Shown: positions 30,650-64,000 of the stretch, piece by piece | Position numbering within the stretch: position 1 is the first letter of the stretch | Layout: each line of letters starts with the position of its first letter | NCBI GenBank assembly: GCA_008632985.1 | Contig: QPGO01000019.1 | Location: 248,001 to 312,000 of the forward strand | Length of the DNA: 64,000 nt | DNA from: Psammoneis japonica | Taxonomy: Eukaryota | Reading direction: 5' to 3' | Program-made: the position numbers and the translations under genes | The notes under the pieces: model-generated | The model's input: only the letters and a program-made list of their open reading frames with translations | Database searches by the model: none | What the model was told of the DNA's origin: nothing

Positions 30650-33600
30650 CAATGATCTCAATTCACCTCGAGAGTGAGAGTGAGATGGATGCATTTTTTT
30701 GCCGATGACACAGCAATGGACAGGTTAAATGTCACGCAAATGTGTTGATGGAGATTCGCGCCACCAGCGGCTCTCCACAGAGTCGAGCAAGGCAACACCA
30801 GATCACACAGCACAGCTGCCCATTTTTTGTGGGAGAGCAGCCTTGTGCCACTCTCCTCGCCCAGGCAAATGGGAACAGCAGGCAGATGCACCATGACAAA
30901 GACACCAAGAGTTTCAAAGGGAAAACTTTCTTGTGTCTTTGTTTGGGAGGTGTGGCACACACCACTGCCCCATGGTGTGTGCTCCACCCCTCTCTTTGTG
31001 GCTCTCTTTTCATCTGGCAGTGCATTTTCTGTGTGAAGCTCTGCATGACTCAGCAAAGTCCTCTTTGCTGGCAACTGTCTGGCGCAATTTCAAGCACACA
31101 CCACTCTGTGTGTTTTGTTGCAATTTCAAGATGGCGGCTGACTCTGCATTTTGTTGTTTTGCACTTCTCACCAGTGCTCTTGTTTGGGGTTCATGTTCAG
31201 CACACTTTCAACTCCTTGTGGGGTGGGTGGGGGCTCTGATGCTTCAATGGCATGGGGATCTTTCAGTGCTTCTTTGTGGCATTTCTTCACCTTGCCATCA
31301 TCTTTCTTTGCCTCTGCTCTTTGTCATTTGCCCCATTGTTGGATGTTCCTGGGCACCCCAGGAGCTTTTCTCTTTCTTCATCATTTTCAAGAAGCACACT
31401 GTCCTGAGAGGTGGTGGGCACATGTTCTTTGGTTCAATGCAGTGCTCAGCTTTGGCACTTCCCATGTGGTGTGGCCAGGGGCTTGCTTCTGTTGACTTTT
31501 CAAAGAACTGCAACTTTGTTTGCTGCACAAAACAAGCATGCATCTGGCTGGCTCCTCTCATTTGATTTGAAGCTGTGGTGCACATCAGGTGCTGTCCTTT
31601 GACATTGAGCTGAAAGAATCAGATTTGAGGTTGTCCCTCTGCCACCCTTTTGGGCGCTGTGGAACGTTGGTCCACCACAGTTCTTGGTGTTGGTGTGTGG
31701 GCAGCAGTGGGACAATGGTGTGGTCAATTTGTGCTGTGTGCCACCACCCAGTTTTCAGGAGCCCCTTGATGGCAAGACCAAGAGGAGCTGCTGGTTTGCA
31801 CAGGACCAGATGCCCATGCTCAACCTTGGATGAGGAGAATGTCCAACTGGCATTGTTGTGCGTTTTCCACTGATTTAAGAAACTGGGTTTCATCAAACTT
31901 TTCATCCATGTCATTGCAAACAATCCATGCTCACATTGAGCTAGACCAGAACTCCAGTGGTGGGTCATCCAACAAGGCCACGAGAAGCTTGGGCCAGTGA
32001 GATTTAGCTCCATTTGGATGTCTCAGGACCAGTGCGTTCTCTAAGACTTGCGTGCATCTGGGATTGCTGTGTGCAACACACAAGCTCATCCTTCCTCTCT
32101 CCAGCAGCGTCAGGCTCTAATCTCGCAATGGAGTGTCAATCAATGTAACACACAGCATCTGTTGCAGCAAACTCATTTTGCCTGCTGCACGCAGGCTCAA
32201 GAACATTCCTTTGGATTGCAATGGCAGACAAAGCCAGCTCTCGCAACCAGCCGAGCCACTGCTCCCATCTAGAGATTCCAGTCCTGTCCACTCGAGAGTC
32301 GGGTGCTGCCTCCGTGAGCGTCTCAAGGCTGACGGGCACCAAAAGACTTTGGCGGCAAACTCATCAATGTCAGGTGCACACGGAGCGTTCGAGTGATTAA
32401 AAAGGTCCACAACAACATTGCAGGGGAGGACATTTTACATCTCATTCCCAATCATTCAAGGCCATTCGTTTCTTTCATGACCTCTTTCTTGAAGCAGTCA
32501 TTTCTTGTGGCATCATTTCAAAGAAAAAGGATGAAATCATTGGCATGTGTGATGAGGGTGTGGAGGCACTACGATCGTCTTCAAGCTCTGGCAGAGCAGT
32601 GGCTCTCTTGAAGTGCCACTGGCCAGCCCAGCAAATCCAACTCACTGATGCACAGCCCAAAGGCTACAGACATGCTGCGCATGGTGGCACTTGATGGCAC
32701 AAGCAGTCTAATGGACAAGCTTGTTTTTCAGTGCTTTGCAGTTGTTCTCAGATGCTGCCTTGAACAAACCTGACAAAATGTGGCCAAAGACCCGGCGTTC
32801 TTCAGCCCACACCTCCAGTGTGCCCAAAAGATCCCCCTGCTCTGTTGCAGACACTTTCTCCCAAATTCGTCGCCCTCCAGAGTTGACTGCCACGACTGTC
32901 TTTACAAATGACTCTAAATCATCCGTTGAACCGCAGCGGCATGGCAAACCCCGGATTGCAGCTCTCACAACGGCTTTGCTTCCATGCCAAAAGGTGCCCT
33001 CGAACGAGGAAGCTTTGAGATGCAAGTCTTGAACAAAGGCAAAGCCCCAATCAATGAGGCAGAGCTTTCCATCACTGTCTTCCATCACATTTTCCGGTCG
33101 TGTGTCTCAATGGTTTGCACCAGCAGCATGCACTCGTTTCAAGCAATCCAAAAGATGAGCAACATTCTGGACCAAAAAAGTTCCAGCAAATGGATGCAAC
33201 AGCTTGTCAAAAAACAGGGCGTTGCCTGAAACCCCAGAGCATCTCAGCAAGCCAATGACTCCTGATGCATTGAGGTGATCCATTGTTCCTTTCTCATGAT
33301 CTGCAAGTTGCTCAAAACCATTCTTCATTGCCTTGACGGCACCTTCCAGACCCCCCAGTCTGGCTGCACACACCTTGCTGGCAGCCCCTTCCCCCACACA
33401 AGAACAAACCTCAATTCTTTCTCCTTTGACATCCTTGTCAAACTTGGGAAACTCATGTCCAAGTTCAGAGGATGTCTTTGACAGCATTGTCAGAAGCTGA
33501 CGCTGCCCATCACACCCAGGATTCAGTGATGCGGGCCCTGAAATCTTGGCAACAAATTGACCATCATTTCCTGATGCCTCTGCCCAGCACATTGACTTTT

Positions 33601-36600
33601 CATCCAAACAGCAATGAAAAAGTGCTGTGCAGACCTTTTGTCTTCCCCTCTGCATGCAGAGCAATCATTCACCACAGTCAACAATTTCCATTTGATCAAC
33701 ATCGTGGCACTGTTTCTTCTGTTCGAAAGCGATTGTCACATCACACTTTGATTGTGGCATTCTGACTTTGTCGGGAGAGGCCACGAACGGTTCACCGCGT
33801 GTGAAGCTTCTGTCATGGCAAAGTCGGGTTCAACTCCTGATGAACATCCATCATCCAGTTTCAGCCAGTGGTCCGATTTAGTCCAGAGCAATCTCTGACA
33901 AACAGCCCAGCCTTCAGCCAAGGCAGAGTCTACCAACTTCTTTGTCTCTTTGAGAAAACAAGGATGATGAATGTTGTTCTCATCTTTGGATTGGTCTGGC
34001 GCATCACCCTGGAAAGCAGTCGTTGCCACTGAATCAACCAAAGGAAAGAAGAAAGGCGCCCCCAAGGAAATTCGATTTTGTGCGATCAGAGAGGAGAATG
34101 CATGACTCTTGGACACATGTGATGGAGTTCTTTTCGGGTGCCCTCGAGCTTCAAGAATGCGATGTTTGATGACCAGCGCCTCAAGAGTTTGTTCTGCCTG
34201 CCGTTTGAATGAATCAATCACTTCGGATTGCTGCTGATGAGAAAGCGTGTTGCTCAAGTGTCAGGCCACGGGGTTGGAAATGTGAACTTCCTTGAGTTCA
34301 TCAAAACTCACCCCAACGAGCATCGAAGGCAAACAATGCCCATTGTTGCACAACACGTCCGCTGACATTCCTGCCACAGTGTTGTCCACCCCCCGACTTT
34401 TCATCCAGTCCATGAGCTCATGCGAGCTTTCAAACCGTTTGTCCTCCATCTTGACGAGGACCGGAGCTGATTTTGTGTGAATGTGGCAACAACGACAAGC
34501 AACAAGCAACAGTTCGACGGAGCACGGTGATCCCATGCCCCATGGCCGTGCGTCCTGCCATCATTGTTGCGGGCGCTTGAATGAAATGGGCGTTCGTGCT
34601 CTGTAAATTGTTTGTTTTGTTGACGCTCTGCACAGCACCTGTCCACAGCAGGCGTTGTTGTGGATTGAAAGGACAAGCAGGCGTTGCTGTGTTCACCACA
34701 GTCAGTGGCTCCCAGGAGTCATGTGTTTTTTTAGATTGACATCAACATTGATGGCCCTCTGCCAACACTGGCTCTGCCACCGCCACTGCCGCCACCATGC
34801 CTGCTGACACAGCAGCAAGAACAGTTGACAAAGAAACAGCAATTCCGCACCAGAATTGAAACAGATCCTTTCACTTTTCCAAAGGTGCCAGGGGCATTTT
34901 CCTCACATGAAAAGCATGAGGGAAAAGAAATGCCATTGTTGGTGTCTCTCAGCAAAACAAAATGGCGTCTTCTTGTTTGACAGTCAGCTGGTGCTGCTGG
35001 AGTCACTCAACAAGCACGCAGGACTTGAGTGCTTCATCTCATCTTTTCATTCTTTGACAGTCATCTTGCTCATGTTTTGAATGAAACAATGCCAGGAAGG
35101 AGAAGTGCAGTGAGAAGCAGCTGTGGACATGGTTGCCCACCACATGAGTGAGATGCCAGAGACACCACCCACTTCTGCAACCCTTGGGTTGATGGCTTGG
35201 ATGTTCCAGCCAACTTTGCTGAGAAATGAAATGAAACTGCAAAGATGCCAATGGGCAATGATGCAGGTGCAACTGCTGACAAAGACTTGCTTGAATCACC
35301 AAGTTTTGGAAAGAACAAGATGCAGGGTGCAGCACTGTTGGAGAGTTTGCAGCCAGAGTGTGTCGTGGATGCAGAGATCTCAATGACCTGACCAAGTGCT
35401 TCTTCAATTGGCAAAGAAGCTCTTGCACACATTCAAAAAAAAACATCAGTTTGCTTTGCATGTTTTGGTGCTGTTCAAGTTCAAGGATGATGGGAAACTT
35501 TAAAATCAGTGAGGACACTCACAAGTGCAAGGGTGCAATCATGTTTGGGGTGCCAACACAGCTTTGCAGAGCCTGCTGCCACATGGTGCATTCTGTGAAA
35601 TGTTTGGAAAGTTCCTGAGTGGGTGCAAGAAGGAGCACACATTGGATGAGAAGAGAGGGACTGTCAATGAAAGCTCAGCAGATCTCACATCCCTGTGGGG
35701 CACTGCTGTGCAAGTTGATTCTGAGGTGTGGGCTTTGGATGACAGATGACAAACAACATCTTTGTGTGGTTTTGGACCATGCCCCAACAGAACTTCATGG
35801 CATGATCAGTGTCCATTGATCCTCTTTCAACATGAGGAATTTCAAACTTGGTCATTGCAGCACTGCAGACAAATGTGATGATTCAAAAGCCAACAAAGCT
35901 GGGGGATGGCTTTTAGTGAAGAACATCAGTGCAAGTCCCAAGGGCTGGATGATGTGATTCTGGGCTGGACTTGGAGCATGGTTTGCCCTTTGTGCAGGGA
36001 GAAGTCCATGATTGGCAGCAGCTGTCTTTTTTTTTGGGCAAAGGTGCACAAGAAAGCACTGCCTCAAAAAAGCATTGTGAGCAACTGGCTGGCATTGTGG
36101 AGGAGCACATCATGCAGCAGCAGGTGCTGACAAGCCATGTGGAGGAGAGGGGTGTTTCAGCCCTTCTTGTGGTTTCCACAAGGGCTTGGTGACACACATG
36201 GTGGCAGACCCTGCGCTCCTCCTCCCATCCATTGCTGCTGTTTTGAGGAGAGGGAAATGGGGTGCGGGGAGTGTTCTCAACTCTGCTGGCACTTTGGCAG
36301 TGTTGGCAACCACCACCATGGCTGCACATTGGCAAGTTTGGATCCAAACCAAAGCTTCATTTGATGCACTGCCATCTCATTGAAGTGCTGTCAATCTGAT
36401 GGCAAATGAGCACATTTTGCATGGAATGGTGAAAACTTTTAGTGGGACATTGTTGGAAGGGCAAAGCACTTTCCTTCTGATCACAATGCAGTGCTTTGCT
36501 TGCACAATCTTTCATGCCAACACAGAGTCTTGTTGACAAAAAGGAGTCATGGCTCTGGCCAACACTTCATGAAGCTGTTGATTCCATGCAACCAACATCC

Positions 36601-38330
36601 AGTTGATGAGCTGTGCTCACTTGCAACAACAGAGCTGAAAGAACGGGGGTGACATCAACCATGATGAGAGTCCTGCCACATGTCACCACTTTGAGACAGC
36701 TGGAAGAGATCACAAACACCATGAGTGCTCTTGTCAATGACTTCTTAAGTCAGACTTGACATGATTTTGACTGCTGGCTGCAGGTGATGCAATTGAAAAG
36801 AAAGCATGAGAATTGGGCATGTCATGGGCAACTGTTTTAAAAAAATGCTCTGGCAACATGCCAAAAGGAAATGGCAGCCACAATGACATCTAAATTGGGC
36901 AGCACAAAGCTTGTGCAACAAGCAACGAATGGCAAATGACAGAGCATTTTTTGGTGATTTGGATGGCCAATGCAACACCAGCAGAGTCAATGTGGGACCA
37001 ATCACCAGCTTGTTTTGCATGATGGGAAAATGTGCTTTTTTCCCTGAGAACTTTTAGCTCCCAAAAGCAACACCAAAGAGTGGCCTTCAGCTCCAGCTTT
37101 GCAGCCATGCAGCACCCAACAATGATGCTGAAGTTGCACCGCCTTTTCACAAACTGTCTCCTGGAACTCTCCTGCCAAATCTCAAGAAGGTGTTTTTCTT
37201 TCATGTCATGGACAACAATGTGTCACTGACACCTGTTCTGGAGAAGAACATTGAACAAGGCAAACTCTCTGTCAGTGGACCAAGCCTCAAATGACAAGGC
37301 TTTTGATGCACTCTGTGACAAGTGTGCTGTGTGCTCGAAGCTTGAAGAGTCAGTGTTGTGTTGCTTTGTCAAAGAGAATGCCTTGAGTTGGATGCACTTC
37401 AACCCAGTGCAATCATGTTTCAAGATCCACAGCAGAAAAGCAAGGTTTAGAGGCTGACAAGCAGTGCCTGATTCCAACCTCAAATTGCAACAAAGGGAAA
37501 GAGACTGGGGTTGTGAAATGCCCTGACAGAAAGGCCCATCAACAGGAGAATGAGGGGAGAAAACAATGCAGAACAGCAGCAACAACAATGGCCGTGATTT
37601 TGTGAGAAGCGCACTTGTTGCAAAGTTGCCCAAGAGACATCAGACATGCATCAAGAGTGCAGGATGCCAAATCCAGCAGCAGATGGCAGATAAAATGGCA
37701 AAAGAGAGAGGAGAACAAAAACGGCAATGTGTGCCATGGTGGGTGTTGGGGTCGGCAGCCCACAGAGGAGGATGGATTGCTGATGCTGCTCTTCATGCCC
37801 CAGTCACAGACTGAAAGGAGCAGTGCATCAGCTGTGGTGCTGACAAACCATGATCTTCAGGTGGATGGTGGCCTGCAGTGCCACAATCAAGTGGCTGATG
37901 CTGTGGAAGAGCTGCAGAACAGTTTGTGCGAGGCACATCAACAACCCCCCTGGGCGGAGAGGGACGCACAGCAACAACGTGCCCAAAGCAACAATCTGGG
38001 TGTGGCGCAGCTCAGTCAAGACACGTGTTGTTCAGTTGCATGCAAGGAGGGTCATGAAGGCGAGAACAACAGATGTTGCAGCCCACTTGGAAGTTGACCA
38101 ACCAGCAGTGTGCCTGTGTTTTGCCGCCACATGTGCTGGCACAACAATGAGATCAATTTTGCAGCATGAGAGACACTGACCCTGTGATGAGTTCCCTCTC
38201 ATAACATGTGTTGCAGTGTATGAAGCAAAATCAAGGGTGCAAGCTCTGTTTTAACTTTCCTGCTCACGCTGCGGCACCCCACACAAAGTGCATGCAGCAG
38301 TCTCGCGCCAAATCAGATCGGACGGACGGA
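30650..38330. repeat. TpA-depleted block 3 (CpG-poor flanks, CpG-retaining core ~32040-34700)
   Basis: Abrupt loss of TA after ~30640 and return at ~38330; core contains the kinase pseudogene. Confidence 0.75.
32708..34449 (-). pseudogene. Degenerate protein kinase with N-terminal helical and possible PD-(D/E)xK-like segment (Crinkler-like architecture)
   Basis: G-loop CVGEGAASKVC, AVK lysine, H*DTRPENV (HRD with a TGA stop), LIDWGF, DDLESF; upstream VEPDF motif; in-frame TGA stops and one frameshift; Tyr absent. Confidence 0.75.
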
Positions 38331-50239: not shown

Positions 50240-50901
50240 TTTTGATCTATCTTCTCAGAAGAAAACAGGGTTGGAATCGTTTGACAAACCACTTGACTGT
50301 TTAGCGAGAATATTGAATCTGGTAGTAAGAACCAAAAAAAAGAAAACGAGGTGAGTGACTCACGAACACAACCAGGACGAAACATGATTGTCACAGCCAT
50401 ACGAATCCATCAACTCTTCCACAGTAAGCTTAAAATAGTCTTTAACACGGATATAGCCGATTGTCAGCACCATGGACTTTGTCAATTCCTCACTTTGTTC
50501 GCTTACCTTCTCGGTTGTGTTGCTTCATGGGCTGACTGCTTCTGATGAATTCGGATTTTGAATTTATTTTGCTGTGAAAGTCAAAAATTTCAGCAAGCTT
50601 CAGGTTTATATACCCTTGATATGATACATATCATTGCAATTGGAGAAATTTCATTAAAAGCTGTATACACAAAAAACACTCTTTATTCAATGTCTGCTCT
50701 TTAAAAGCGATATCAACTGTTCCAACGTAAAAATTTGTAAATACTCATGAAATCACGTAGATCAAATTTCTTCACAAGACTCAGCTTTATGCATGATAGC
50801 GGCATTTCAAGATACGAATTCAACGGACAATCTCGGGATCCTCCGATCGTGCGATGCCGCAGCGCAAAGCGAGCAGGCGGGCGGATAGGATACTATGAGT
50901 A

Positions 50902-51791: not shown

Positions 51792-53094
51792 TCAATACCT
51801 TTCCCAATAGCCTGTGCTTGTGAAGTGAGCAAGGTTACACTCGAACGATGTAACAACTTCCCCTGCTTTCGGGTGATGATGTTGAGTGATGCAGTGCGTC
51901 GGTTTGTTGGCCGGCCGGATATCGAATCGTCTGGATGACCAGTTTGCCAAAAAGCGCTGGTTGATGTTGGTAGGTTCGCAATCTCGAAACGACACAGCGT
52001 TCGCTCTCGTACGTTCCAGGCACCTGTCTCTGTCACGAACCTTGATCATGTCTCCGGGCCCTTTCATATAAACAATCTCAAACTTCGTTCCTGATCCACA
52101 ACCGAAAACCATTGGCGGCGAAGTGTCTTTCATGCACCACTTTGTTTCCCTATTGGTCTCCTGCCAAAAGTATCCACGCTCCCAATAGAGGCTGACAAAC
52201 AAGGGAAAGGAAACAGACAAAATGAGACTGTTTTCTTTTTGCCTGCTGAAATCGAACAAGGATTGAAACGTACCGTATACGAAAGCCAGGCGAAGGTAGC
52301 GCCGGAGGAGCGACACCGTCAAGGCCAGAGTAACAATAATTCACGCCAGGGCTTCCTGCCCCTTCACATCCAGGAACAAACTCATAACCGCCGCGCCTTT
52401 GACAGCGAAGACGCCCGCGGCAATCGTCGTGATCCCTGCAATTTCCTTCACACTTGTTGAAAGGTTTCATCGAGTCGTCAAGTTCCACAAGGTCGACACG
52501 AGTTGGAGACGCAGAGGGTGAACCTGTCGGAAAGTCGGTCGGAGAAGCCGAAGGCGCCAATGTTGGTGCTGGAGAGCTAGTTGGCTCCGAAATAGTCGGA
52601 GCAGCCGATGGAGTTGCTGTCGGTGCCGGGGTGTTGGGATCATAACAATAATCTTCTCCTTCAAGGGCGACTCCATCGCAACCCATCACGGGCTCGTCGC
52701 CGCTACGACGCTCACAGAGCAAGTCACCAAAGCAGTCATCGTCATCGTCGCAGTCACCTTGGCATTCTTGTAGCCCATCGTCAGGCCATTCTTTGCCATC
52801 CACAGCTCTTCCATTGTTACCAATGTATTCGAACACTGGGTTTGTTTGCTTCAAAACCGCATTGTCCAGATTCTTGACCGCGGCACCCTCGCTGGCTTCA
52901 TCTACGTCTTGTACGGGAGTGTCCTGCACGCGAACGCCAGTGGCGACATGTTCGTTCAACTGAAGCGACCTCACGTCTTGAGGATTTTCTTTTTCGGCTC
53001 GTCGCACTTGCGCAGTGCCACTGCAGCAACAAAGAGCGGCGAGGACCAACGTCAAGACGACAGCAAACCGAGAGTTCGTCGCGACTCTCCTCAT
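51792..53094 (-). CDS. Frustulin-like protein E; one intron ~52192-52273
   Basis: CQGDCDDDDDC, CEGNCRDHDDC, LYWERGYFWQE, CITQHHHPK; closest to D. Confidence 0.88.
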
Positions 53095-55469
53095 TTTACC
53101 TATCAGGAAGGAAGTGACCAGAGGAAAAAAGAAATAAACTGAGATTTTGAAAGTGACGTCGAAACTTCTCCAGCATGCGCAAGAGGTACGTTTCTAGTCG
53201 CGATTCGAGTGTGTTCAATCATCACTTACCTTCTCCTTTCCAAAGTTCTTCGCTTATGCTTGAGAGCAATCAGATGTTGATCCTTTACCTACAAGCTGTT
53301 GATCGGCTTTCTACTCACCTCAGAAGTGCGGAGTCAGAACTGCATCGGTCGTGTATCCGCCAAAAACTTTGTGCGAAAAGAGTGGTCCGTGCCGAAGAAG
53401 AAACGCATTTTTTTGGTGGCTGATTTCCACATTTTGAAATTTTCAATCTTGCAAATTTGTCGATAAAGTCCCGCCTAAATATTCCGTTTTACTGATCCTC
53501 ATAGCATATATATTTGGCCAAATTTTACGACACAATCATAACATTTAGATCCGAATATTACGAAAAGTTGCTCACATACGACATCGTACTGTACTGTATG
53601 TACGACAGTACTGCAGTCATTTCATCGTCATTTACTCTCTTCATAAATGTGATTATAAAAAACAAACTTTTACATGGTTATCTTTCGTAATGAGCCAAAA
53701 AAGTAATATTCACATCTATTTTCGTATAAACTTTAACGGAACAGAGTAACGGAAACGTTGGATACTGCCTGCGCGCTGGTTTGTTGCACAACTTGAAACT
53801 AGCTACTCTAGTAGTAGAGGAGTCTACGTGTACCGGTACATAAAGCCCTACTGTACCACACTCGACTCTCGGCCGGGCCGATCGACTTCACTCACCTCCC
53901 GTACAATTCTACTGTACGATCCACGTAGTCGTATGCACCGGCACGTGCAGGGCCCCACTGCTGGCGGAGCGAGGCGAGGTCTCTCAGCAATGTGCCGTCC
54001 AATCTGCAAATCCAATCTCTCGAAGTGTGGGATGCCCACAACTTGGCACGTGTGTGTCTGCAACAGGGACACAATCATCCTGTCAGAAAGGGGGTGTCTC
54101 ATGTGAGGTGCAAGTTGAGTGTTTGCTTTGTGCACAAACAACCCCCCCCCCCCCCGTCGCCCAGTCTGAAAGGGAATGTCTCATGTGCCGGGCAGCAAAT
54201 CGTGGGTTGAGTCGCACTTGCTTCATGGCACACTTTGGGACAAGAGCTGCTGACTGGCAAGCTTTTGCAGTGGTTGTTTTGGCATGGCAGTCTTGGCCCA
54301 TCTCCCAAAATCTCGGGTGATTTCCCACCCCTCCCCCACTGAGACGCAATGATGCATTGTGCACACCAAAATGCGCTGTGTTGGCAATTTGCATTTGTGC
54401 CAGAACATTGGGTGAAACACCTGCTGTGCATGCTGCCTGCCACCACATGCTGCTTGTTGGAGCACTTGTTGTTGCGTGCCTGTTTCTTCATCAGAGGCCG
54501 CAGTTGGTGGCGCCCACTTTCCTTCGTAAATTTTTTAATGTGCGCTGTCAAAATTGTTGACAAGCAAAATTTGAAATCTTCCGGCAACAGCGCTCAACAA
54601 ATTGCAGTTGTTTTTTGTGTTTCATCTGATGTCTCGCTGGCTTTTCTTGCACAAGCTTCAATCAAAAATGCACACAATGTTCAGTTCAATTGGAGTTGAC
54701 ATCTGTGTTTTGTGATGCATGGTTTGGTTTCCTTTTGATGGTCGTCAATTTGAACTTGGTTTCTGCTTTGGCCCTCCTCAACTCACATGTGTGTGTGTTT
54801 GCACGTGTGCAGTCTACTTCCTGCATGTGCGTGACCCACCCTCCATTTTAAATTTCTCTCAGTGCTTCCAAGATTTTCACAGCCGCTTGGTCTGCAGCAT
54901 TTTCAGCATTTTTTTCACATGCACAATTTTCCACACACTTTGTGACAGTGCATCCTCTCCCCAAAAGTCAAAAAGCAAGATCATGCACTGTTGTGATTCA
55001 TGTGGATTCTGCGTGTGGTTGCAAATCTGCAAATCGACAACCGGCCATGGCGGTGAAAGACTTCACCCCGTTGGCCGATGACAGCAGCTCAATGCATGGT
55101 GAAACCTGGGCACAGCTTGAGTTTCATGATTGTGGGTGTGCTGTCACAAATCTGCCGCATCCTGAATGCTGAGCTGCTGGTGTGTTGTTGTGTGCACACA
55201 TGTCATGAAAAGTTCTTTGCCACATGTGACACTCTTCAAAAAAGGCATGCACAAAAAGAGCTTCGTTGGTTTTTGATGCACTCACTTGCGTTGCATCCGT
55301 CTTCTCCAACATTTGTCCAGATCCAGAAAGACTGCAGAGGCAGATGAGAGTGCTGGGGAGGCAACCCATTGGAGGTTGCCTGAGCTGTCAAGAGCTCATT
55401 TTCAAAGGCTTCCCAAGTCTCTCCACTGTTTCTGGTCCATGCTCTAAACATGTCATCAATGAACCATCC

Positions 55470-55837
55470 TGTTGAACCGACGAGTCAATGGCGGCAAACG
55501 GGAATCTTATAAAGAATCCTCCGCTCTCGTCACACTCGTCCTGGTTGCTTGTGCGGCTGTGGTTTGCCCAGAAGATTGCTCAACACAAACTTCGTTTGCT
55601 TGTCAGATGTTTGTTTTAACAGATGCTTCCCAGTGCCGATCGACACAGATGACAAACCAGATGGTTCACTCTAAAGAGTGAGAATGTCGTTGCGTGAATG
55701 ACAGATTGATGACAAAGAAGACACAGTCATCAGAATGCACACGTCATCGGATTGTGCACGTGTGGAGCCTCACATGTCTTTCACTTCAATTCATGTGTGT
55801 TCGGGTCACTTTCACCCCGCACTCAAATGCTCCAACA
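55470..55837 (-). repeat. 3' LTR (368 bp)
   Basis: Aligns end to end with 62518-62886. Confidence 0.96.
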
Positions 55838-55849
55838 CACTCCTGCCGC

Positions 55850-57280
55850 TCACATCGATTGTTCTTGAACGTCGCAAGCGGGAACAGCGCCCTTTGGAAT
55901 GACATCGTATCCTGTCACATTGGGAACACCTGTCCCTTCCACACTCAAGTCAGCTTCGGTGCTGCAACACCACTGCGTCTGATTGGGATTCAAAAAGTCG
56001 AGCATCACATTGAATGAATCGGTGACACCTTCGACACAACGCACGAATTGGGTCACACAGTCACGTCGGATTTGTTCCTTCACGACATCGTCACTGAAGC
56101 CACCTTCACACTTGGTCTCCAGGTTCGCAATGACGTCCTTGATCCATCCATGGATTGCATCTGGACGCAACTCAAAAAAAGCCACTTGGCTGATGAGCCA
56201 CAGGCTTCCGCGATCAGATGGCCAGACAGTGTTGAGGCTGAAGAACATTGCCAGCTTGAATCCATCGTGTGCCACTCCATTGCCATCAATGGCCAATGAG
56301 TGCCGGACGAGATTGTCCATGTTGCGATTCCGCTGACGTGATTCAAAAGGATCCACGTTCAAATCCACAAGTCCTCCAACTTTGCCGTGGGCATCAACCC
56401 CACACAACAGCAAACCACAGGTTCGCGACAAGCCAAGTCGGTCAATGTCACTGCAGTCTGGTGCAAGCTTGAGCATGTTGCCTCACGATCGCCACTGGTT
56501 GGATCGCCTTGTGTCAAGAGCTTGCGGTCTGCCGGCTGAGCACTGCCAGCAATCTCAAGCAGCATGTGCCGTCTGGCTCTTGTTCCTGATCTTGAGCAGC
56601 CTCTGTTCCATGTCGTCGTGGAGAGAGAACATCGGTGTTGTGGCGGACACACAGTGCCGCATGGGAGGCGACCATTTCTTGTGCAGTTTGAAGACTGACT
56701 CCATGAGACCAAAACGTTGTCTCCACAGTCTCATGAACACCTCCTTGAATTGCTGACGGTGAGTCACGAATCACTCTTCCCAGCAAATCATGTGATGGTC
56801 CAGCGTGTCCATCGCTGAGACCGGCTCTTCGGCAGGTGGATCGCCATCTGCCATTTCTGCGTTTGTGTTGTGACTCGGTGCAAACGCTCTTGTCCAAAGG
56901 GAGAGTTGGTCCCTTGCTCGTTTGTGCGCTCTTGTGGCGCGTTCTTGGAGAATTTCCTCCTTTCTTCCGTTCCATAAATCCACAGGAAGACTGTCGGCAC
57001 GCAGGTCGCCCATCCTGATGAACTCATCCTTGATGCTTGCATCAATTGCGCAGGCGCCCACCACCTCTAAAAAATGGTTGTTCAGCCAACGATTCAACAC
57101 TGTGCCTGTTGTGTTGTGAGTGACATGTTCTTGTGGCCTTTTCTCATTGCACAAGTGCCGCGTGGCCCTTTCTTGGTGCACCGCTTGGTTGATGAGGTCT
57201 CCGACACGTTCGTTTGGTGCCGCTTCTAACACGGCGCTCAGGATGGTTTGATCAATGTCCACCTCCTCGTCGTCATTCAT
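55850..57280 (-). pseudogene. Additional ~476-codon ORF between pol and the 3' LTR, unknown function
   Basis: ORF-track pieces 56771-57280, 56555-56767 and 55850-56476 share one frame, broken by three TGA codons; protein-like composition. Confidence 0.65.
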
Positions 57281-57375
57281 TGTCGACCGTTGTTGTCATG
57301 CGAAATGTGATTCGCTCCGGAGAAGATCGCACGATTGTCATTCTCCGGGTGCCAGGGATCTTTCACCCACACGCA

Positions 57376-60300
57376 TCAGAATTCTCGTCTGACATCACAA
57401 ACAGGTGTCTCACCTGTCACCATCAGGACTTGACGTCCCATGACGGCTCGTTTGAATTTTAAAAACTTTTCACCTTGCAATGGCTTGGTCATGAAACCTC
57501 CAATCATCGCGTCGGCAGGACAGCACTCGATGGTCAGGTTGCCCTTCTCGACTTGGTTGCACACGAAGAAGCATCGCATGTTCAGCGCTCTGGAATGCTT
57601 GCCTGCGCTCCGACGAACGGCATGGGATGTTCTTGTCGATGGGACATCCTTGGTGCTCCACAAACAGCTTCGTCCATAGGATCATGGTCATTGCGTCGTC
57701 AACACCCACCAGCTCGGCTTCTGTGCTGCTTTGGGTGTTCAATTTCTGTCTTCGTGACATGGCTTGCATCACTCCATCACCCATTGTCTTCACTGCTCCA
57801 GTGTGGCTCTTGAAATCTGGATGCACCGCGAAGGATGCATCGACATGTCACTTTGTCACTCGGAGATCTTTTGCGCTCAGGGCAGCCACCTCGTTGCGCA
57901 CTCGATTCAGACACTTGAGGCACCAGATGAGCTTCGCCCAGTCTTTGTTGGTGGGCTCTCTTGTCCGTGTGCATGATGCTGATGTCGTCGGATGGACGTC
58001 CATGCGTCCACGTTTGGATGCGAACAGTCCTTTCGCTGCCCACGTGTGAAACATCTGTGCTTTCTCTGGCGGCAATTTTGTTCCACCCACCTCAAATGGG
58101 TTCTCCCCTGCTGGTGTCACAGCAAAATCTGTGCTCTTGATCTTTTCTGGAAATTTGTCAATCACAGATCCGACACACTTTCTCATGTCTGCCATCACCT
58201 TTCCTTTGTCGGTGAAGTCCAGGATCATGCCGAGGCAGTCATGTTTCGGACCCCTCGTTGCCACGACTTCGCCGTGACTCCCGTGCTTCCTGTTCAACCA
58301 GTTGAGGAACTTGTCATTAACTTTTGGGTTGACGTGGCTTGACAGCAAGTTGTCCACGTGAAATCGCACTGTGCGCTGCTTTCCGTTGACAACTCGGTTG
58401 GCAATGCACGGGTCACATGGGTTGAACTTGAACCCCACCCTTTCCAAGTCTTTACGGAACTTCTTGCACCACAGCAGTGCGGCAACAAGCATGCCACAGA
58501 TTGCTCTGATGACTTGGACGTAAAGGACTCTCTTTCCTTTTTCTAGGACCACGTGCGGTCCATGCAAGTTCGGATCAATGCTTGCCAGCATGTCCACAAG
58601 TGAACCTGCAATCTTCATCATGATTCGTTCCTTGCCTTCCTTGGGTTCTGGAACTTCTGTTTGAATGAATGCGTTGGGGATGTCAGCGCTCACAACATTG
58701 CGTCCCTCGTCTGCATCGATCACCGCAGTCATCAGGATTCCTTCCAATGATGCTGTTGGACTGGCTGATTCGTCTTTGTCCAGCCATTCTCTGGATGGTT
58801 TCCCGTTGTGTGACATCCGCCCTTTGACGCGACCATCGCGTTTCTCTGCAAGGAACATCAGGGCTCTCATTGCCTTCTTCCTCTCGGTCGGAGTCATGCT
58901 TTTCACTGAAACCGGTTGGAAGCAAACTCGGTCGTGCAGTTGTTTCATTTCTTTCCGTGAGGCATCATGTCCTCGCTGTCCAAACAGTTTGAGACCTTTG
59001 TGTGGTGGATGTTGCTGACCAAACGACATCTCCTTTCCTGCTTGTGCTCTGTCGTTGTGTTCGCACATGAAAAATGCAGTGACCAATCCTTCTTCACAGT
59101 CACAGTCTGTGTCGTCTTGTGGGTTGGGACTCCCATTGGTCAGGACATTGTGGCAATGCTCAAGCTTTCCCAGCTCTTGTTCTTCTTCTTGGGTTCTCGC
59201 CACTCCTGCAAAGCGGACTTTCTTTGTCGTGTCACTTGTCTTTGCTTTTGCATTGCAGCTGCGTCCTGATCTTGTGGCTCGGCTTGTTGTTTCTGCCGAT
59301 TCTTCTGGTTGTTTCATCTCTTCTTGGCATTGATTTGGACTGGATCCATCTTCTGCAAGGATCTCATTGGTTTCTTCGTGTTCTTCGTCAGATTCACATT
59401 CGTCGTTGTAATCGTCATTGTCATCGTTGTCGCTGTTGCTGTCGCTGTCGTTGTCGCTGTCGCTGTCGTTGTCGTTGTCGCTGCCGTTGTCGCTGTCGCT
59501 GTCGCTGTTGTCCACTCCTGCAGTCCAATCAGTGTCACGAAGATTGTCGCCACATTTGCCGGTGAACTTGAAGTCCTTGATGCCTTGACGAGAGGCCATG
59601 CGTTCAACCGCCCGAACGTGGGTGTCGGTTAAAGGGACTGCAGTGCATTTGCAGGGGTTAAGAAGTTTCCCTGTGTGGAGATTCACAGTGCAGTTTCCCC
59701 TTTTGTCCGTGTCGCAACAGGGGCGTGGGCAGATGCTGTCGATCCCACGTGTTTCCATTGCATTTGTGGGGGAATTCTCAACATGTGAAAGAACAAATTC
59801 GCTGAAAGTGAAAGCAAAATGCTTGTTGCAGTCGAGATTTCTGCGTTGCAAGATGGCATGTGGACTGCAAATGTCCAAGATGCCCTCCTTTTGCGGGCGC
59901 ACATTCGACATCACAGTGTTCTTGATTGCCACGTGCTCACACATGAGCTTGGGCATTGCCTTGTGTGGCGCGTGTTGAACGGCAGCTCTTGTCCGTTCCT
60001 CAATGGTTTGAACACTGCGCTCGACTTCAGGTGCGTGGTCCTTGGTGTTGGCACTGACAAGTTCAATGTCCATGCCGTCCGCAACGTCAGAAAGCATCTC
60101 TTTAAATTCAGGATCACACTCGATGAAGTCAATCTTGAAGGAAGCCTTGTTGCATTGGCGCAGAATGGTGTCCAGTGCGTCACACACGTGAACGTGCTTC
60201 TTGGACTTTAAACGCACGCTCGCTCAACATTTGATCATCTTGTCAATAGAATGGAGCAGCTTGACTCCACAAACCTCCATGATGTCAATGCATGGAGCAG

Positions 60301-62434
60301 TGCTGTCCTTCTGTCTCTCACAAAGTTCTGGCGGCAAGGAAACAATGTCGTTCCTCTCATGGGAACGGCGGGCGCGTTTGGATTTTCCTTTCACTGCGTC
60401 CACAGGTGGACCCCAAATGGCCACCATACGATCGGCGTCTTTGGGAACAATGTCGACAATCTTGACTTGGTTCGATCGCAGGAAGCACTTGCAATCCCAC
60501 ACACTGGGGATGCCAGCCTCGCAGTGGAATCAGAGAGCCTCTTTTGCCCTCGCGATCTCGCGTTTTGCATGCCCTTTTGAGTTTTCTTTGGCAGTCGGAA
60601 TCGCTGTCCCAGCAACACTGCCTGGCCCGCGCTTCTTGCGCTTCGATTGCTTGGATCCTGTCATGTTCATGTTCACATGTTGCTCTGCTTCTTGGAGCTC
60701 CTTCACGTGATCTAGGAATCCCTTGCTTGGTGTAAACGTGCATGGGCCAATGCTGTTTGCCTTGAACACTGCGACTTGCTTCCCCGACTTCTTGTCCAGC
60801 AAGCGGAATTCATCGGCTGCTTGCGTGTCATGGGTCACGTTGCACTTTTTCTTGACGTCTCGTAAACTGAGGATGTTCGCAATTGCATTCTTTGTCCCGA
60901 GTTTCATGTCACCCCATCCTGGCATGGTGCAGTCTTCATCCAGCGTGTCCACTCCTGTGTTTGTTGACAGGTCGATCTTGACCTTTGCTGGTCTGATGCT
61001 GTGCACGAGGTTCCCACTCGCTGCCATGCCAAGGGTGGATCCATTGTCGAGGATCAATTCATCTGACTCGATGTTTGATGAGCTCTGGTTCATGCTGACC
61101 TGTGTGCTCTCGTTCGTCACTTGCAAATGTGATGAATGCCAAGACCTTCTGTTTCCATTGGACCGCGACAACCTGACGCCACTGATTGAATCAACGCTTG
61201 TGTTGTCGTCTTCTGAACTGTTTTTGCCAGTTCGAGCCTGTGCGTGGCTTTGTCCCGGCAGTTCGGGCTTCTTCTTGGTGTTCTTGAACCACTTGTCACA
61301 GGGGATGTCGCTTCAGTGTTTGCACTTGTTGGACTTGTGCCCCCCCACACCACAACAAGCACAGATGATTGCCTTGTCTTGTGTGGTCTGTTGTGCATGA
61401 CTCTGGTCCTTCTTGTTTTTCTTGTCTTGATCGTTTCTTTTCAATTCGTTTCGCTTCCCGCTTCTTTTTTGTGGATCGTTGTCCTTGGGATGATTCAATG
61501 ACATGTCCACTGCCGAGTCCAAATCCTTCGGATGCGTGTCATTTCCGAGACTGCAGTCTCATGCCAGACTCTTCTCAAGACTCTTGTGATGGCAATCATC
61601 GCTGTTCTGAATGAACAGACATGTCGTCCATGTCTCGCATGCATCCTTCTTGAGTTTGTCCTTTTGTGTCCTGGTTCCCATGGTGCACTCCTTGGTGTTC
61701 TCGATGAAACCGTCAAGGAATCTATCTCCCATTCCTTCTTTAGCAGCATCGCGTTGATTCTTGAATCGCAACAAGCAGTCATTTAGTGACTCATGTTCTT
61801 GGTGTCTGACGTCAAGCAAGGCAGACAAGGCCTTGGTGAACGTGTGGAATGGGTGACGACCTCTCATGGAGTCGCATGTCAGGGACTGCATCAGTTTCAA
61901 TGACTTGATCGGGTCATCCCTGATCGTGTCAAAACTGGGATCTGCCTCCACCCACTGTCTCATTAGCTTGGAGCAGTGATCGTCTGAGATCGTTGCAGCA
62001 GCCTTTGTCTTGTTCTTCTCAAACTCTGAGAGCTTTCCACGGCACTCGCCCAGTTCCGCCCTGCACTCATGGATCAACTGTCTGTTCTCGAGCTCTCTGT
62101 CTGCATCGTCTTTGGCTGCAGATGCCTTCAGCACTGGTTTCTTGCCACTGAAATCCTTGCAGTTCATGTCTTCCAGTGAATGGGTTAAGTGCACGCCCTG
62201 TTCGCACTCCTTCTGGATGCAACGCACTGGCTTTGTCTTGACTTGCTTGAATGTTGCGTTGCAAGAGTTGCTGTTCATGGAGGACGGATGGAATTTCATC
62301 TCCGTGGTGCAGTTCTTGCTGTTGAATGCCTTCTTCTTTGAGTTGGAAGATTTGTGGCCTTTGCTGCTGTTGCCGCGACCATTGTTGCGGTCTTTTCCTT
62401 TTCTGTGCGGGTTGCTCGACCCTCTGTCACTCAT
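57376..62434 (-). pseudogene. copia gag-pol polyprotein, disrupted
   Basis: Zn knuckle CACCGVGGHKSNKC, protease LILDNGST, integrase core (ECDPEF...HAPEVERS), RT SADIPNAF and FHVDN (from FHVDD), RNase H DASFAVHPDFKSHTG, STEAELVG, FMTKPLQG; several stops and frameshifts. Confidence 0.93.
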
Positions 62435-62517
62435 TGCACAGGCTGCTGATTGTCTCCTTTTAGACTGCAGACTTTCCAGTTAACAAGCACTTGTTGCTTG
62501 TGACTCTTTAGAGTGAA

Positions 62518-62886
62518 TGTTGAACCGACGAGCCAATGGCGGCAAACGGGAATCTTACAAAGAATCCTCCGCTCTCGTCACACTCGTCCTGGTTGCTTGT
62601 GCGGCTGTGGTTTGCCTGGAAGATTGCTCAACACAAACTTCGTTCACTTGTCAGACATTTGTTTTAACAGACACTTCCCCAGTGCCGATCGACATGGATG
62701 ACAAACCAGATGGTTCACTCTAAAGAGTGAGAATGATGTTGCGTGAACGACAGATTGATGACGAAGAAGACACAGTCATCGGAATGCACAAGTCATCGGA
62801 TTGCACACGTGTGGAGCCTCACACATCTTTCACTTCAATTCACACATGTTCGGGTTGCTTTCACCCCGCATTCAAATGCTCCAACA
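62518..62886 (-). repeat. 5' LTR (369 bp)
   Basis: Aligns end to end with 55470-55837. Confidence 0.96.
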
Positions 62887-64000
62887 CATCCACAGCACAG
62901 GAGGTGCAGGGTGAACTTGGTCATGCAGGCGGTGGTTGTTCCCATGGCCATTCTGGTGAGTGTGTTTTGTGGCACTCAACATGTTTTTTGTTTGCTCACG
63001 TGCTTTCTTTCTGTGTTTCATTTGAGTTGCAGGGGTGGAGCTGGGTGTTCAATGTCTTGCACCATGTGGGTGCTCAACATCTTCTTGCACCGTCACACAC
63101 CAGTGTCCATGTTGCTGTGGAGTCAGTGGCGCCAGATGCCCTGGTGCACCGGCAAGTGTGTGTTGCTGTTCATGTCAGTTCATCTGTGTTGTGCTCTCAC
63201 AACATTCTCTTTGCTTTTTGGCAATGAATGAGGTGGATCAGAGCAACAGCACTTCTGCTGCAAACTTGCATGCTCCAGAATCAGCAGCGTTGGATGCACT
63301 GGTGAGTCCATGTTGCCATTCCCATGGGTTGTGTTGGTTCATCCATGTCACACTCTCACAACATGATCCACTCTTTTTGGCGCTGAATGAGGTGGAACAA
63401 AGCAGCGGCACTTCAAATCATGGAACATGGAACAGCAGAGCTCCTGCTGCAAACTCGCCTGCTCCAGAATCAGCAGATGCACCGGCAAGTCTACATTGCC
63501 ATTCCTGTTGGTGGTGTCAGTCCATCCACATTGTGCTCTCACAACATGTTCTGCACTTTTTGGCAATGATCAAGGTGGCTGCCAGCAGCAGCACTTCAAG
63601 AAAGCGAGCTGCAACTGCTGCTGCAATCTCTGGGATGTTGTCTCCATCAGCGCCATCTAAGAATTTAAATGCAAACAACAAAACAAAATGTTTGTGGCAC
63701 AGTGCAAATGATTTTAATTTGCAGGTTCTGCAGGGACAGAGGGCGGGCACTCTCACAGGGAAAACGTGCCCCTGTTTCACAGTGAAACAATTTTCCTCAC
63801 AGGGAGGGGGGGTTAGATCCCACAGCATGAAAATGTTCATCTGCCACAGTTGACAGGTTCTGCAGGAACAAGGGTGGGCACTCTCACAGGGAAAATGTGC
63901 CCCTGTTACACAGTGAAACAAGTTTTCCTCACAGGGAGGGGGGGTCAGATCCCCAGCATGAAAATGTTCATCTGCCACAGTTGACATGTCATTGCCAGCT

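What the first reader, a model, noticed from the sequence alone, without database searches (positions are those of the whole stretch)
55470..62886. The LTR pair records independent post-insertion hits on either strand
Seen: by manual alignment the two LTRs (identical at insertion) differ by about 10 reciprocal TG<->CA double changes (e.g. CCCAG/CCTGG, TTTGC/TTCAC, GATGT/GACAT, CATGTGTG/CACACATG, GTCAC/GTTGC). There is also one direct TA/CA pair (TTATAA/TTACAA), about 4 CG->TG/CA changes and about 4 other substitutions, while over a dozen CpGs persist in both. Inference: the swaps derive from ancestral TA mutated on opposite strands in each LTR. This places the process on integrated chromosomal DNA rather than on the RNA/cDNA intermediate, where ADAR/APOBEC-type editing would be strand-biased. 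LTR-divergence dating would overestimate age.
Basis: partly seen in the sequence, partly recalled or inferred. Interest (0 to 1): 0.88.

Follow-up and report, generated by a model that had tools for sequence, protein, structure and literature searches.

The report
TpA-erasing hypermutation of diatom retrotransposon
The two end-repeats of a jumping gene in a diatom genome show that, after insertion, the host DNA lost almost every TA step to TG or CA on either strand, a rare kind of targeted mutation so far reported only in one other alga.

Summary
LTRs 55470-55837 and 62518-62886 have TG…CA ends and an intact 5-bp target duplication (CATCC). They differ at 30 of 370 columns: 10 reciprocal TG/CA swaps, 1 TA/CA, 4 CG/(TG|CA), 4 other substitutions and 1 indel. 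16 CpGs persist in both.

- TA observed/expected is 0.07 in the element, while CG is 0.77.
- Of 16 conserved Tyr columns, 1 is kept, 10 are Cys (TGY) and 3 are His (CAY). A host gene shows 0 Cys/His at 7 such columns.
- CpG decay predicts only 0.12-1.2 swap columns.

The host is a diatom. TA loss is confined to repeat domains with sharp edges and depends on flanks: RTAY is lost most, YTAR least. Four of 80 related copia loci from metagenomes show the same Tyr-to-Cys/His loss.

The closest known case is TpA-only hypermutation of integrated viruses in Bigelowiella natans (2026 preprint). This looks like a new member of that kind. The direct test on family copies was only partly possible, because no genome is held.

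The parts
55465..55469 (.). Target-site duplication CATCC, left copy
   Evidence: the same 5 bases directly precede the left LTR and directly follow the right LTR.
55470..55837 (-). Left LTR (the 3' LTR in the element's own orientation), 368 bp, TGTTG...CAACA. It holds 7 TG and 3 CA at the 10 swap columns.
55838..62517 (-). Internal region of a decayed Ty1/copia-type element. TA o/e is 0.07 and CG o/e 0.77. Open frames occur in all six frames because TAA/TAG stops are gone.
57848..60223 (-). Longest open frame (791 aa, P0001), the polyprotein part with a copia-type reverse transcriptase. Tyr is 0.3% and Cys 3.8%.
59373..59511 (-). 12-bp-period tandem repeat that encodes an acidic Asp/Ser/Asn linker of the polyprotein
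   Evidence: the homolog P0002 has an acidic stretch at the same place.
62503..62517 (-). 15-mer at the primer-binding position next to the 5' LTR. It is complementary to an LTR-internal segment (55665-55679, 62714-62728).
   Evidence: Any function is inferred only.
62518..62886 (-). Right LTR (the 5' LTR in the element's orientation), 369 bp. It holds 3 TG and 7 CA at the 10 swap columns.
62887..62891 (.). Target-site duplication CATCC, right copy
54001..55464 (.). Older TA-free flank into which the element inserted (TA o/e 0.05, CG o/e 0.41)
   Evidence: TA occurs about every 10 bp up to 53932, then not again before 54500.
62892..64000 (.). Older TA-poor, CG-poor flank with short tandem families (TA o/e 0.08, CG o/e 0.26)
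14501..22750 (.). Old repeat domain that has lost both TA (o/e 0.05) and CG (0.09), with TG and CA near 1.9. No recognisable protein remains.
30751..38250 (.). Old repeat domains (30751-32000 and 32251-38250), TA o/e 0.03-0.06, CG 0.14-0.29
751..2000 (.). Old repeat domain, TA o/e 0.03, CG 0.14

Best explanation
A Ty1/copia-type LTR retrotransposon inserted once into a diatom chromosome (5-bp duplication, LTRs identical at that moment). It was then hit, as integrated double-stranded DNA, by a context-specific transition process that turns TpA into TpG or CpA.

Either base pair of the TA step can change, so the same ancestral TA now reads TG in one LTR and CA in the other. That gives the 10 swap columns, and about 10 more sites probably changed to the same state in both LTRs and are now invisible.

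The process is confined to repeat or mobile-element DNA and spares neighbouring genes. It runs roughly 350 times faster per site than background substitution. It prefers R-TA-Y sites over Y-TA-R sites. It is distinct from, and faster than, the methyl-CpG decay that also acts on these repeats.

Shown: the TA-to-TG/CA direction, the post-integration timing, the use of both strands, the domain restriction and the flank dependence.

Inferred: that this is an active, targeted host activity of the kind measured in Bigelowiella natans. My preferred chemistry is enzymatic deamination of adenine in DNA at TpA (about 45%). Oxidised thymine (5hmU/5fU) mispairing with G is second (about 20%). Domain-specific failure to repair a general lesion is third.
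For: - Anatomy and tally of the LTR pair.
- TA o/e 0.07 against CG 0.77 in the element; genes have TA 0.4-0.8 and CG about 1.
- Conserved Tyr columns: 16 in all, 1 kept, 10 Cys (TGY), 3 His (CAY), 2 Phe. The control gene has 7 such columns: 4 Tyr, 3 Phe, 0 Cys/His. An earlier MAFFT version gave 14 columns: 1 kept, 9 Cys, 3 His, 1 Phe.
- Of 79 single-step replacements at conserved columns, 28 are TA-type, 13 CG-type, 12 other transitions and 26 transversions. The control gene has 0 TA-type among 18 single-step replacements (21 replaced columns in all).
- Models: 0.12-1.2 CG-derived swaps expected; TA hits 1.93 per site per copy against 0.0054 background, a ratio of 354.
- Flank rule: TA survival is 0.004/0.02 for RTAY, 0.06/0.07 for mixed flanks and 0.30/0.40 for YTAR (old domains / focal element). 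CG shows no such rule.
- The flank rule was replicated against 69 related loci as baseline, and in four independent TA-poor loci (Fisher p = 2e-13).
- Domain edges are sharp.
- Of 80 related copia loci from metagenome contigs, the four with the lowest TA o/e (0.16-0.38) have Cys/His at 6 of 9, 9 of 10, 5 of 10 and 11 of 14 conserved Tyr columns. The other 76 have 0-3.
- Family contigs of one coded run differ from this copy mainly by transitions (A>G 123, T>C 119, C>T 167, G>A 146 places; the 8 transversion types 11-24 each). The 40 rows shown include 8 TG/CA swaps and 6 places where all covering contigs (1 to 8 per place) read TA.
- Precedent: TpA-only A>G/T>C hypermutation at about 6e-7 per site per generation in integrated viral DNA of B. 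natans (bioRxiv 10.64898/2026.01.13.699255; abstract, Results and Discussion read).
Against: - The direct test on the 10 swap columns in other family copies is incomplete. Only one column is visible in a truncated table, no genome is held and no other LTR copy lies in the window.
- Among the rows shown, places where all covering contigs read CG (10) outnumber those where they read TA (6). CpG decay is therefore also active in this copy, and up to about 1 swap could be CG-derived.
- A homogeneous TA model predicts 0.12 untouched TA columns, but 3 are seen. The fit needs the flank heterogeneity.
- The run that was laid may be the sample the window was assembled from, so it may not be independent.
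- The survival baselines (host DNA, related elements) are proxies for the unknown ancestral sequence.
- A simple single-strand TAY rule is only partly borne out. The product ratio is 1.56 in old domains and 1.21 in the focal element, against 1.14 in control DNA.
- No enzyme, modified base or real-time mutation was or could be observed here.
Confidence: 0.85

Rival explanations
1. Classical methyl-CpG decay. The swap columns were CpG at insertion, and 5-methylcytosine deamination hit opposite strands in the two LTRs.
For: - CG to TG/CA does occur here: 4 LTR differences, old domains with CG o/e 0.09-0.29, and 10 places where all family contigs read CG against TG/CA in this copy.
- Diatoms are reported to methylate transposable elements (PMC9998398; abstract and passages seen).
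Against: - 16 CpGs are intact in both LTRs, with only 4 single hits. That predicts 0.12 swap columns, or 1.2 at the higher Arg-codon rate.
- It would require an ancestral LTR with CG o/e about 1.55 and TA o/e about 0.15.
- CG density in the element is 0.83-1.02 of that in genes.
- 13 of 14 Tyr codons (leaving aside the 2 Phe columns) went to TGY/CAY.
- The flanks of the swap columns fit the TA rule; P(6 or more of 10 in R_Y) = 0.009 under the CG model.
Confidence: 0.05
2. A genome-wide TpA-to-TpG/CpA mutational bias with no targeting. Repeats simply drift to equilibrium because nothing selects for their TA.
For: TA is also under-represented in the gene-bearing parts of the window (o/e 0.4-0.8).
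Against: - The TA rate in the LTRs is about 354 times the background rate of the same LTRs. At that rate, unconstrained TA in unique DNA would have vanished.
- Yet intergenic stretches keep TA about every 10 bp right up to the domain edge (53500-53932).
- The related element L064 shows the same bounded depletion inside normal flanks.
Confidence: 0.07
3. Assembly or base-calling artefact. A DNA modification at TpA in heterochromatin makes long-read callers write TG or CA.
For: - The sequencing platform of the assembly is unknown.
- Only 0.44 of the sampled 31-mers of the stretch are held by the one run that holds it.
- At some places no contig supports the window's letter.
Against: - The same Tyr-to-Cys/His loss and the same flank rule appear in four independent metagenome contigs from other assemblies.
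- Contigs of the run carry the same kind of TG/CA swaps among family copies, and 98 of the 674 contigs laid are at least 99% alike to the stretch.
- CpG decay and other damage (frame breaks, Asp to Asn) accompany it.
Confidence: 0.03
4. Editing of the RNA or cDNA intermediate (ADAR- or APOBEC-like) before integration.
For: A-to-G changes next to U/T resemble the 5'-neighbour preference of ADAR, as discussed in the B. natans preprint.
Against: - Both LTRs are copied from the same template, so pre-integration editing cannot make them differ. The intact CATCC duplication shows one insertion.
- Both strands are hit at the same columns.
- TA loss per copy estimated from the LTR pair (about 0.85) matches that of the internal region (0.93). 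Little is therefore left for a pre-integration share.
Confidence: 0.02

Closest known systems
TpA-specific hypermutation of integrated NCLDV and virophage DNA in Bigelowiella natans (Mettrop et al., bioRxiv 10.64898/2026.01.13.699255; abstract, Results and Discussion read; supplements closed)
   Same: - Only TpA is hit, giving TpG or CpA depending on the strand.
- The process is restricted to foreign or integrated DNA and runs orders of magnitude above background.
- The long-term signature is TpA-depleted, CpA+TpG-enriched clusters that include reverse-transcriptase CDS.
   Different: - The host here is a diatom (stramenopile), not a chlorarachniophyte.
- The target is an LTR retrotransposon, and loss is near saturation (TA o/e 0.07, against 0.45 in their NCLDV region).
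- A flank rule (RTAY > mixed > YTAR) is seen here. A term search of the preprint's main text for flanking, context, trinucleotide, tetranucleotide, diatom and stramenopile found 0 occurrences.
- Here the evidence is historical (an LTR pair), not real-time mutation accumulation.
Repeat-induced point mutation (RIP) of fungi
   Same: It is a DNA-level, dinucleotide-specific transition process that ruins integrated mobile elements and leaves genes alone. It inflates LTR divergence.
   Different: - RIP, as I recall it, converts CpA/TpG to TpA, so TpA is gained and GC falls. Here TpA is lost to TpG/CpA and GC rises: the mirror image.
- Dependence on duplication and on a RID-type methyltransferase could not be tested.
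Methyl-CpG decay of silenced transposable elements
   Same: A palindromic YpR dinucleotide decays to TG/CA on either strand. It is also at work in this window's older repeats.
   Different: The target dinucleotide differs (TA), there is a flank rule that CpG loss lacks, and in the focal element the decay is much faster.
ADAR / APOBEC editing of retroelement RNA or cDNA
   Same: Clustered transitions that inactivate retroelements.
   Different: Those act before integration and are strand-biased, so both LTRs would carry the same changes. Here the LTRs differ and both strands are hit.

Membership tests
Ty1/copia LTR retrotransposon | Direct long terminal repeats with TG...CA termini | tested here: met
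   TGTTG...CAACA, 368/369 bp.
Ty1/copia LTR retrotransposon | 5-bp target-site duplication | tested here: met
   CATCC on both sides.
Ty1/copia LTR retrotransposon | Copia-type reverse transcriptase (Pfam RVT_2) | tested here: met
   The element's own frame scores 20.5 bits, below the 31.6 cut-off. This is expected after the decay. It aligns at 43% identity over 821 columns with P0002 (E 7.5e-199). 4 of 4 homologs tested carry RVT_2 above the cut-off.
Ty1/copia LTR retrotransposon | Integrase encoded upstream of reverse transcriptase | tested here: inconclusive
   Pfam found no integrase domain in the element or in the 4 homologs. The order is suggested only by a D...E-like stretch that I recognised by eye.
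TpA-specific hypermutation of integrated foreign DNA (B. natans type) | Changes fall on TpA and give TpG or CpA | tested here: met
TpA-specific hypermutation of integrated foreign DNA (B. natans type) | Confined to mobile or foreign DNA, with the neighbouring host genes spared | tested here: met
   and the control gene.
TpA-specific hypermutation of integrated foreign DNA (B. natans type) | Rate orders of magnitude above the local background | tested here: met
   about 354-fold, estimated from the LTR pair itself. This is an inference from divergence, not a measured rate.
TpA-specific hypermutation of integrated foreign DNA (B. natans type) | De novo occurrence in living lines; episodic activity | not testable with these tools
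   Needs mutation-accumulation lines or population resequencing.
Fungal RIP | C-to-T at CpA (or a related context), producing TpA gain and AT enrichment | tested here: not met
   TA o/e is 0.03-0.08 and GC is unchanged at 0.47-0.51 in the affected domains.
Fungal RIP | Dependence on sequence duplication and on a RID/DNMT4-type enzyme | not testable with these tools
   No genome is held. Passages of PMC9998398 say that some diatoms have DNMT4 of unknown function.
Methyl-CpG decay as the source of the swap columns | Enough double CpG hits to give 10 swaps | tested here: not met
   0.12-1.2 expected.

The most novel reading that the evidence does not exclude
Diatoms, and apparently other environmental hosts of this copia lineage, possess an active genome-defence activity. 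It recognises integrated or silenced mobile DNA and converts TpA steps, preferentially in R-TA-Y, to TpG/CpA on either strand of duplex DNA. It shares its chemistry, and perhaps its ancestry, with the Bigelowiella natans system. If so, it is a SAR-wide mirror image of fungal RIP, carried out by a natural DNA A:T-to-G:C editor.
Probability: 0.45. Interest if true: 0.85.

Novelty: new member of a known kind. Interest (0 to 1): 0.72.

Why it matters
- Breadth. It extends a mutational defence first reported in 2026 in one chlorarachniophyte to diatoms, a major phytoplankton group, and to LTR retrotransposons. Traces in independent environmental contigs suggest the process is widespread.
- Timing and strands. 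The LTR pair is a natural internal control. It shows the process acts on integrated DNA, on both strands, about 350 times faster than background.
- Dating. LTR-divergence dating is inflated about seven-fold here (7.9% against 1.1%).
- Annotation. Affected repeats lose TAA/TAG stops and Tyr codons. ORF finders therefore report long spurious frames in all six frames, and domain searches fail (0 credible Pfam hits in 54 ORFs from the TA-poor domains other than the focal element).
- Enzyme. The flank rule (RTAY) constrains the search for the enzyme. A natural TpA-directed A:T-to-G:C activity on duplex DNA would interest the base-editing field.

Tried and rejected
- Whole genome: none is held, so the family-wide and all-LTR-pair tests were impossible.
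- Other LTR copies in the window: none found by blastn.
- Ghost repeats after purine/pyrimidine recoding: none beyond the LTR pair, the paralog genes and a small tandem family.
- Pfam on 54 ORFs from the TA-poor domains other than the focal element: only 5 weak hits, all below cut-off.
- Runs X2 and X3 gave essentially no cover (1 and 0 contigs laid). No conclusion is drawn from that.
- Clustering of same-strand outcomes (processive single-strand deamination): runs tests z = -2.24 to 0.40 across the seven TA-poor domains (about 0 in the focal element and in the largest old domain), no stronger than in the gene regions (-0.68 to -3.75).
- Strand bias relative to transcription: Tyr to Cys 10 against His 3 and TA>TG 19 against TA>CA 9. 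The second count is biased by which changes alter amino acids, so bias is not established.
- A single-strand TAY rule predicting which base pair mutates at mixed-flank sites: supported in old domains (product ratio 1.56 against 1.14 in control DNA), weak in the focal element (1.21).
- An LTR pair in the TA-poor metagenome locus L064: no direct repeat of 60 bp or more in any of the 4 TA-poor loci.
- Earlier notes of this scan: nothing on this genome or on look-alike sequence. The hits for 'TpA depletion' concern phages and have no bearing.
- My recollection that the RT motif YVDD had become HVDN was wrong. The intact homolog already has HVDD; only the Asp-to-Asn change is a difference.
- I did not scan metagenomes for LTR copies. 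The best relative of a host gene in the protein collection is only 65% identical, so the species is unlikely to be there.
- Two-base inversions, UV photoproducts at TpA and GC-biased gene conversion were considered. I rejected them because none explains loss that is domain-restricted, TA-specific and made of transitions only.
- Literature: searches found no account of TpA hypermutation in diatoms. Only the B. natans preprint turned up.
Full report
**What is there**

The two direct repeats are real. They begin with TGTTG and end with CAACA. The same five bases, CATCC, precede the left copy and follow the right copy. So this is one insertion with an intact target-site duplication.

Between the LTRs, on the minus strand, lies a decayed polyprotein gene.
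- The longest frame (57848-60223, 791 aa, P0001) gives only a sub-threshold RVT_2 match (20.5 bits against a cut-off of 31.6).
- It has 41 relatives at E <= 1e-5.
- It aligns at 43% identity over 821 columns with P0002.
- 4 of 4 relatives tested carry RVT_2 above the cut-off.

The element is therefore Ty1/copia-type. An integrase domain was not detected by Pfam, so the domain order is not confirmed.

The window's ordinary genes are intron-poor: four F5/8 type C domains, a multicopper oxidase and an MFS sugar transporter. All named relatives of the transporter are diatoms (Epithemia, Seminavis, Nitzschia, Mayamaea, Amphora and others), with a best identity of 65%. The host is a diatom that has no close relative in the protein collection.

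**The observation**

The LTR alignment has 370 columns, of which 30 differ:
- 10 reciprocal TG/CA double changes;
- 1 TA/CA pair;
- 4 CG against TG or CA;
- 4 other substitutions;
- 1 one-base indel.

CpG is kept in both LTRs at 16 columns and TA at 3.

In a purine/pyrimidine alphabet the pair is 99.2% identical. A pair of paralogous genes in the same window has 4 such swaps among about 257 differences, most of them transversions. The pattern is not chance.

**Which dinucleotide was ancestral?**

TG/CA swaps are symmetric. They fit either an ancestral CG that lost C or G, or an ancestral TA that gained them. Five lines of evidence favour TA.

1. Composition. In the element, TA observed/expected is 0.07-0.08 while CG is 0.77-0.78. 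CG density is 0.83-1.02 of that in the neighbouring genes.

2. Polarity from homologous proteins.
   - At the 16 columns where at least 60% of the aligned relatives (of the 34 used) have Tyr, the element keeps one TAC. It has 10 TGY (Cys), 3 CAY (His) and 2 Phe.
   - At 27 conserved Arg columns 18 are kept, 13 of them still CGN, and 5 are CAA/CAT/TGG.
   - In the host transporter gene the 7 conserved Tyr columns read 4 Tyr, 3 Phe and no Cys or His. A MAFFT version gave the same picture.
   - Of 79 single-step replacements at conserved columns, 28 are TA-type, 13 CG-type, 12 other transitions and 26 transversions. The control gene has none of the TA type among its 18 single-step replacements (21 replaced columns in all).

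3. Rates.
   - The 16 intact and 4 singly hit CpGs imply a per-copy CpG loss of 0.11 and 0.12 expected CG-derived swap columns. Even the Arg-codon rate (0.28) gives only 1.2.
   - The Tyr-codon rate (13 of 14, leaving aside the 2 Phe columns) explains 10 swaps from about 23 ancestral TA. That is an ancestral TA o/e of 0.77, a normal value: 80 related elements have TA o/e mostly 0.5-0.8.
   - A CG origin would need an LTR with CG o/e about 1.55 and TA o/e about 0.15.

4. Flanks. TA loss depends strongly on the flanking bases and CpG loss does not (see below). The 10 swap columns have 6 R_Y, 3 mixed and 1 Y_R flanks. The likelihood ratio is 7 for TA, and P = 0.009 for six or more R_Y under the CG model.

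5. Other family copies, partially. Contigs of one coded run were laid at 80% likeness, and 674 family contigs fitted.
   - They differ from this copy mainly by transitions.
   - Among the 40 best-supported rows there are 8 TG/CA swaps, 6 places where all covering contigs read TA and 10 where they read CG.
   - At swap column 55807 all 6 contigs read T. The partner change at 55808 is not among the fully supported rows, which implies TA in some copies.
   - The table was cut (653 rows not shown), and the run may be the assembly's own sample.

I conclude that at least about 9 of the 10 swaps descend from TA.

**Timing and strands**

The LTRs were copies of one template, and the target duplication is intact. 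Their differences therefore arose on integrated DNA. The same column reads TG in one LTR and CA in the other, so either base pair of the TA step can change.

Per-copy TA loss estimated from the LTR pair (about 0.85) is close to that of the coding region (0.93). Most of the damage is therefore post-integration.

TA sites took about 1.93 hits per site per copy against 0.0054 for background substitutions, a ratio near 354. LTR divergence is 7.9% raw and 1.1% once YR-type changes are set aside.

**Surroundings**

The window falls into two kinds of DNA.
- Gene-bearing parts have TA o/e 0.4-0.8 and CG near 1.
- Repeat domains (751-2000, 14501-22750, 30751-38250 and 54001-64000) have TA o/e 0.03-0.08.

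The older domains have also lost CpG (o/e 0.09-0.41) and have TG and CA near 1.6-2.0. The focal element, nested in such an old domain, still has its CpGs. TA loss is therefore the faster of two separate decays.

The edges are sharp. For example, TA occurs about every 10 bp up to 53932 and then not again before 54500. The TA-poor domains other than the focal element contain many open frames in all six frames but no credible Pfam match (54 ORFs). This is the expected result of losing the TAA/TAG stops and the Tyr codons.

**Flank rule**

Survival of TA, relative to non-depleted DNA of the window, for old domains / focal element:
- R-TA-Y: 0.004 / 0.02
- mixed flanks: 0.06 / 0.07
- Y-TA-R: 0.30 / 0.40

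ATAT and GTAC are extinct (0 against 115 and 127 in control DNA). CpG survival shows no such rule.

With 69 related, undamaged loci as the baseline, the focal element gives 0.019 / 0.050 / 0.274.

A single-strand T-A-Y rule would explain the three classes. Its prediction about which base pair mutates at mixed sites is borne out in old domains (product ratio 1.56 against 1.14) but only weakly in the focal element (1.21).

Neighbouring sites choose their strand independently (runs tests). A bias relative to the coding strand is not established.

**Elsewhere**

80 related copia loci were fetched from metagenome contigs.
- Most have TA o/e 0.5-0.8.
- CG varies independently, from 0.15 to 1.3.
- The four loci with the lowest TA (L070 0.16, L059 0.26, L044 0.30, L064 0.38) have Cys or His at 6 of 9, 9 of 10, 5 of 10 and 11 of 14 conserved Tyr columns. 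The other 76 have 0-3.
- These four also follow the flank rule: 0.23 / 0.55 / 0.88, Fisher p = 2e-13.
- L064 shows the depletion bounded by normal flanks.

The search patterns required two intact motifs, so damaged copies are under-sampled. The hosts of these contigs are unknown. They are independent assemblies, which argues against an assembly artefact and for a process wider than this genome.

**Known relatives**

The closest known case is a 2026 preprint on Bigelowiella natans. I read its abstract, Results and Discussion; its supplements are closed.
- In mutation-accumulation lines, two integrated viral regions mutate at about 6e-7 per site per generation, some 1000 times the background.
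- The changes are almost only A>G/T>C, and all fall on TpA.
- The genome holds TpA-depleted, CpA+TpG-enriched clusters that are enriched in reverse-transcriptase and DDE domains.
- The authors propose an ADAT2-like DNA adenine deaminase.
- The main text does not mention flanking context, diatoms or stramenopiles.

My searches found no report of this process in diatoms.

Fungal RIP is the functional analogue but chemically the mirror image, since TpA is gained there (this is recalled, not tested). Methyl-CpG decay also acts here, but it cannot account for the swaps. RNA or cDNA editing cannot make the LTRs differ.

**Mechanism**

I commit to a host activity that targets integrated or silenced mobile DNA and makes A:T-to-G:C transitions at TpA on either strand, preferentially at RTAY.

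- Shown: direction, timing, strand symmetry, domain restriction and flank dependence.
- Inferred: targeting by chromatin or small RNA, and the chemistry.
- Odds on the chemistry: adenine deamination to inosine about 45%; thymine oxidation with G mispairing about 20%; domain-specific repair failure or something else for the rest.

Nothing in the sequence distinguishes attack on A from attack on T. The two views predict the same products.

**Verdict**

This is a new member, in diatoms and on LTR retrotransposons, of a kind of hypermutation described only recently in one other alga. The added details are the flank rule and evidence of environmental breadth.

Noticed in passing
62503-62517 (- strand); 55665-55679 and 62714-62728 (+ strand): The 15-mer TTCACTCTAAAGAGT sits on the element's sense strand directly after the 5' LTR, at the primer-binding position. 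Its complement lies inside both LTRs (3 matches, 0 expected). An LTR segment complementary to the primer-binding site recalls self-priming elements such as Tf1 (recalled, not tested). All three copies keep their TA, which is in the resistant CTAA context.
   Followed up: partly
2501-3500: A 1-kb stretch that is TA-poor (o/e 0.13) but CG-normal (0.82), like the focal element. It may be a fragment of another young mobile element or a solo LTR. Two ORFs there have no Pfam match.
   Followed up: partly
46625-47704, 49307-50254, 52150-53193: Three tandem paralogous genes on the minus strand with no Pfam domain. They are 68-72% identical in DNA with an ordinary, transversion-rich substitution spectrum. 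I used them as a control.
   Followed up: partly
26199-30242 (-) and 5901-7517 (+): Long open frames of 1347 aa and 538 aa in normal-composition DNA with no Pfam family.
   Followed up: no
63164-63600 and 63722-63986: Short tandem families (periods of about 183-189 bp and 131 bp) in the old flank. Copies differ by TG/CA swaps, CG/TG pairs and one TA/CA pair.
   Followed up: partly
L055, L037, L065, L045 (metagenome loci): Related copia elements with strong CpG depletion (o/e 0.15-0.32) but normal TA (0.63-0.77) and intact Tyr columns. In other hosts CpG decay occurs without TA loss, so the two processes are separable.
   Followed up: partly
59373-59511: A 12-bp-period repeat encodes an Asp/Ser/Asn-rich acidic linker in the polyprotein. 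The homolog P0002 has a Glu/Asp-rich stretch at the same position.
   Followed up: no
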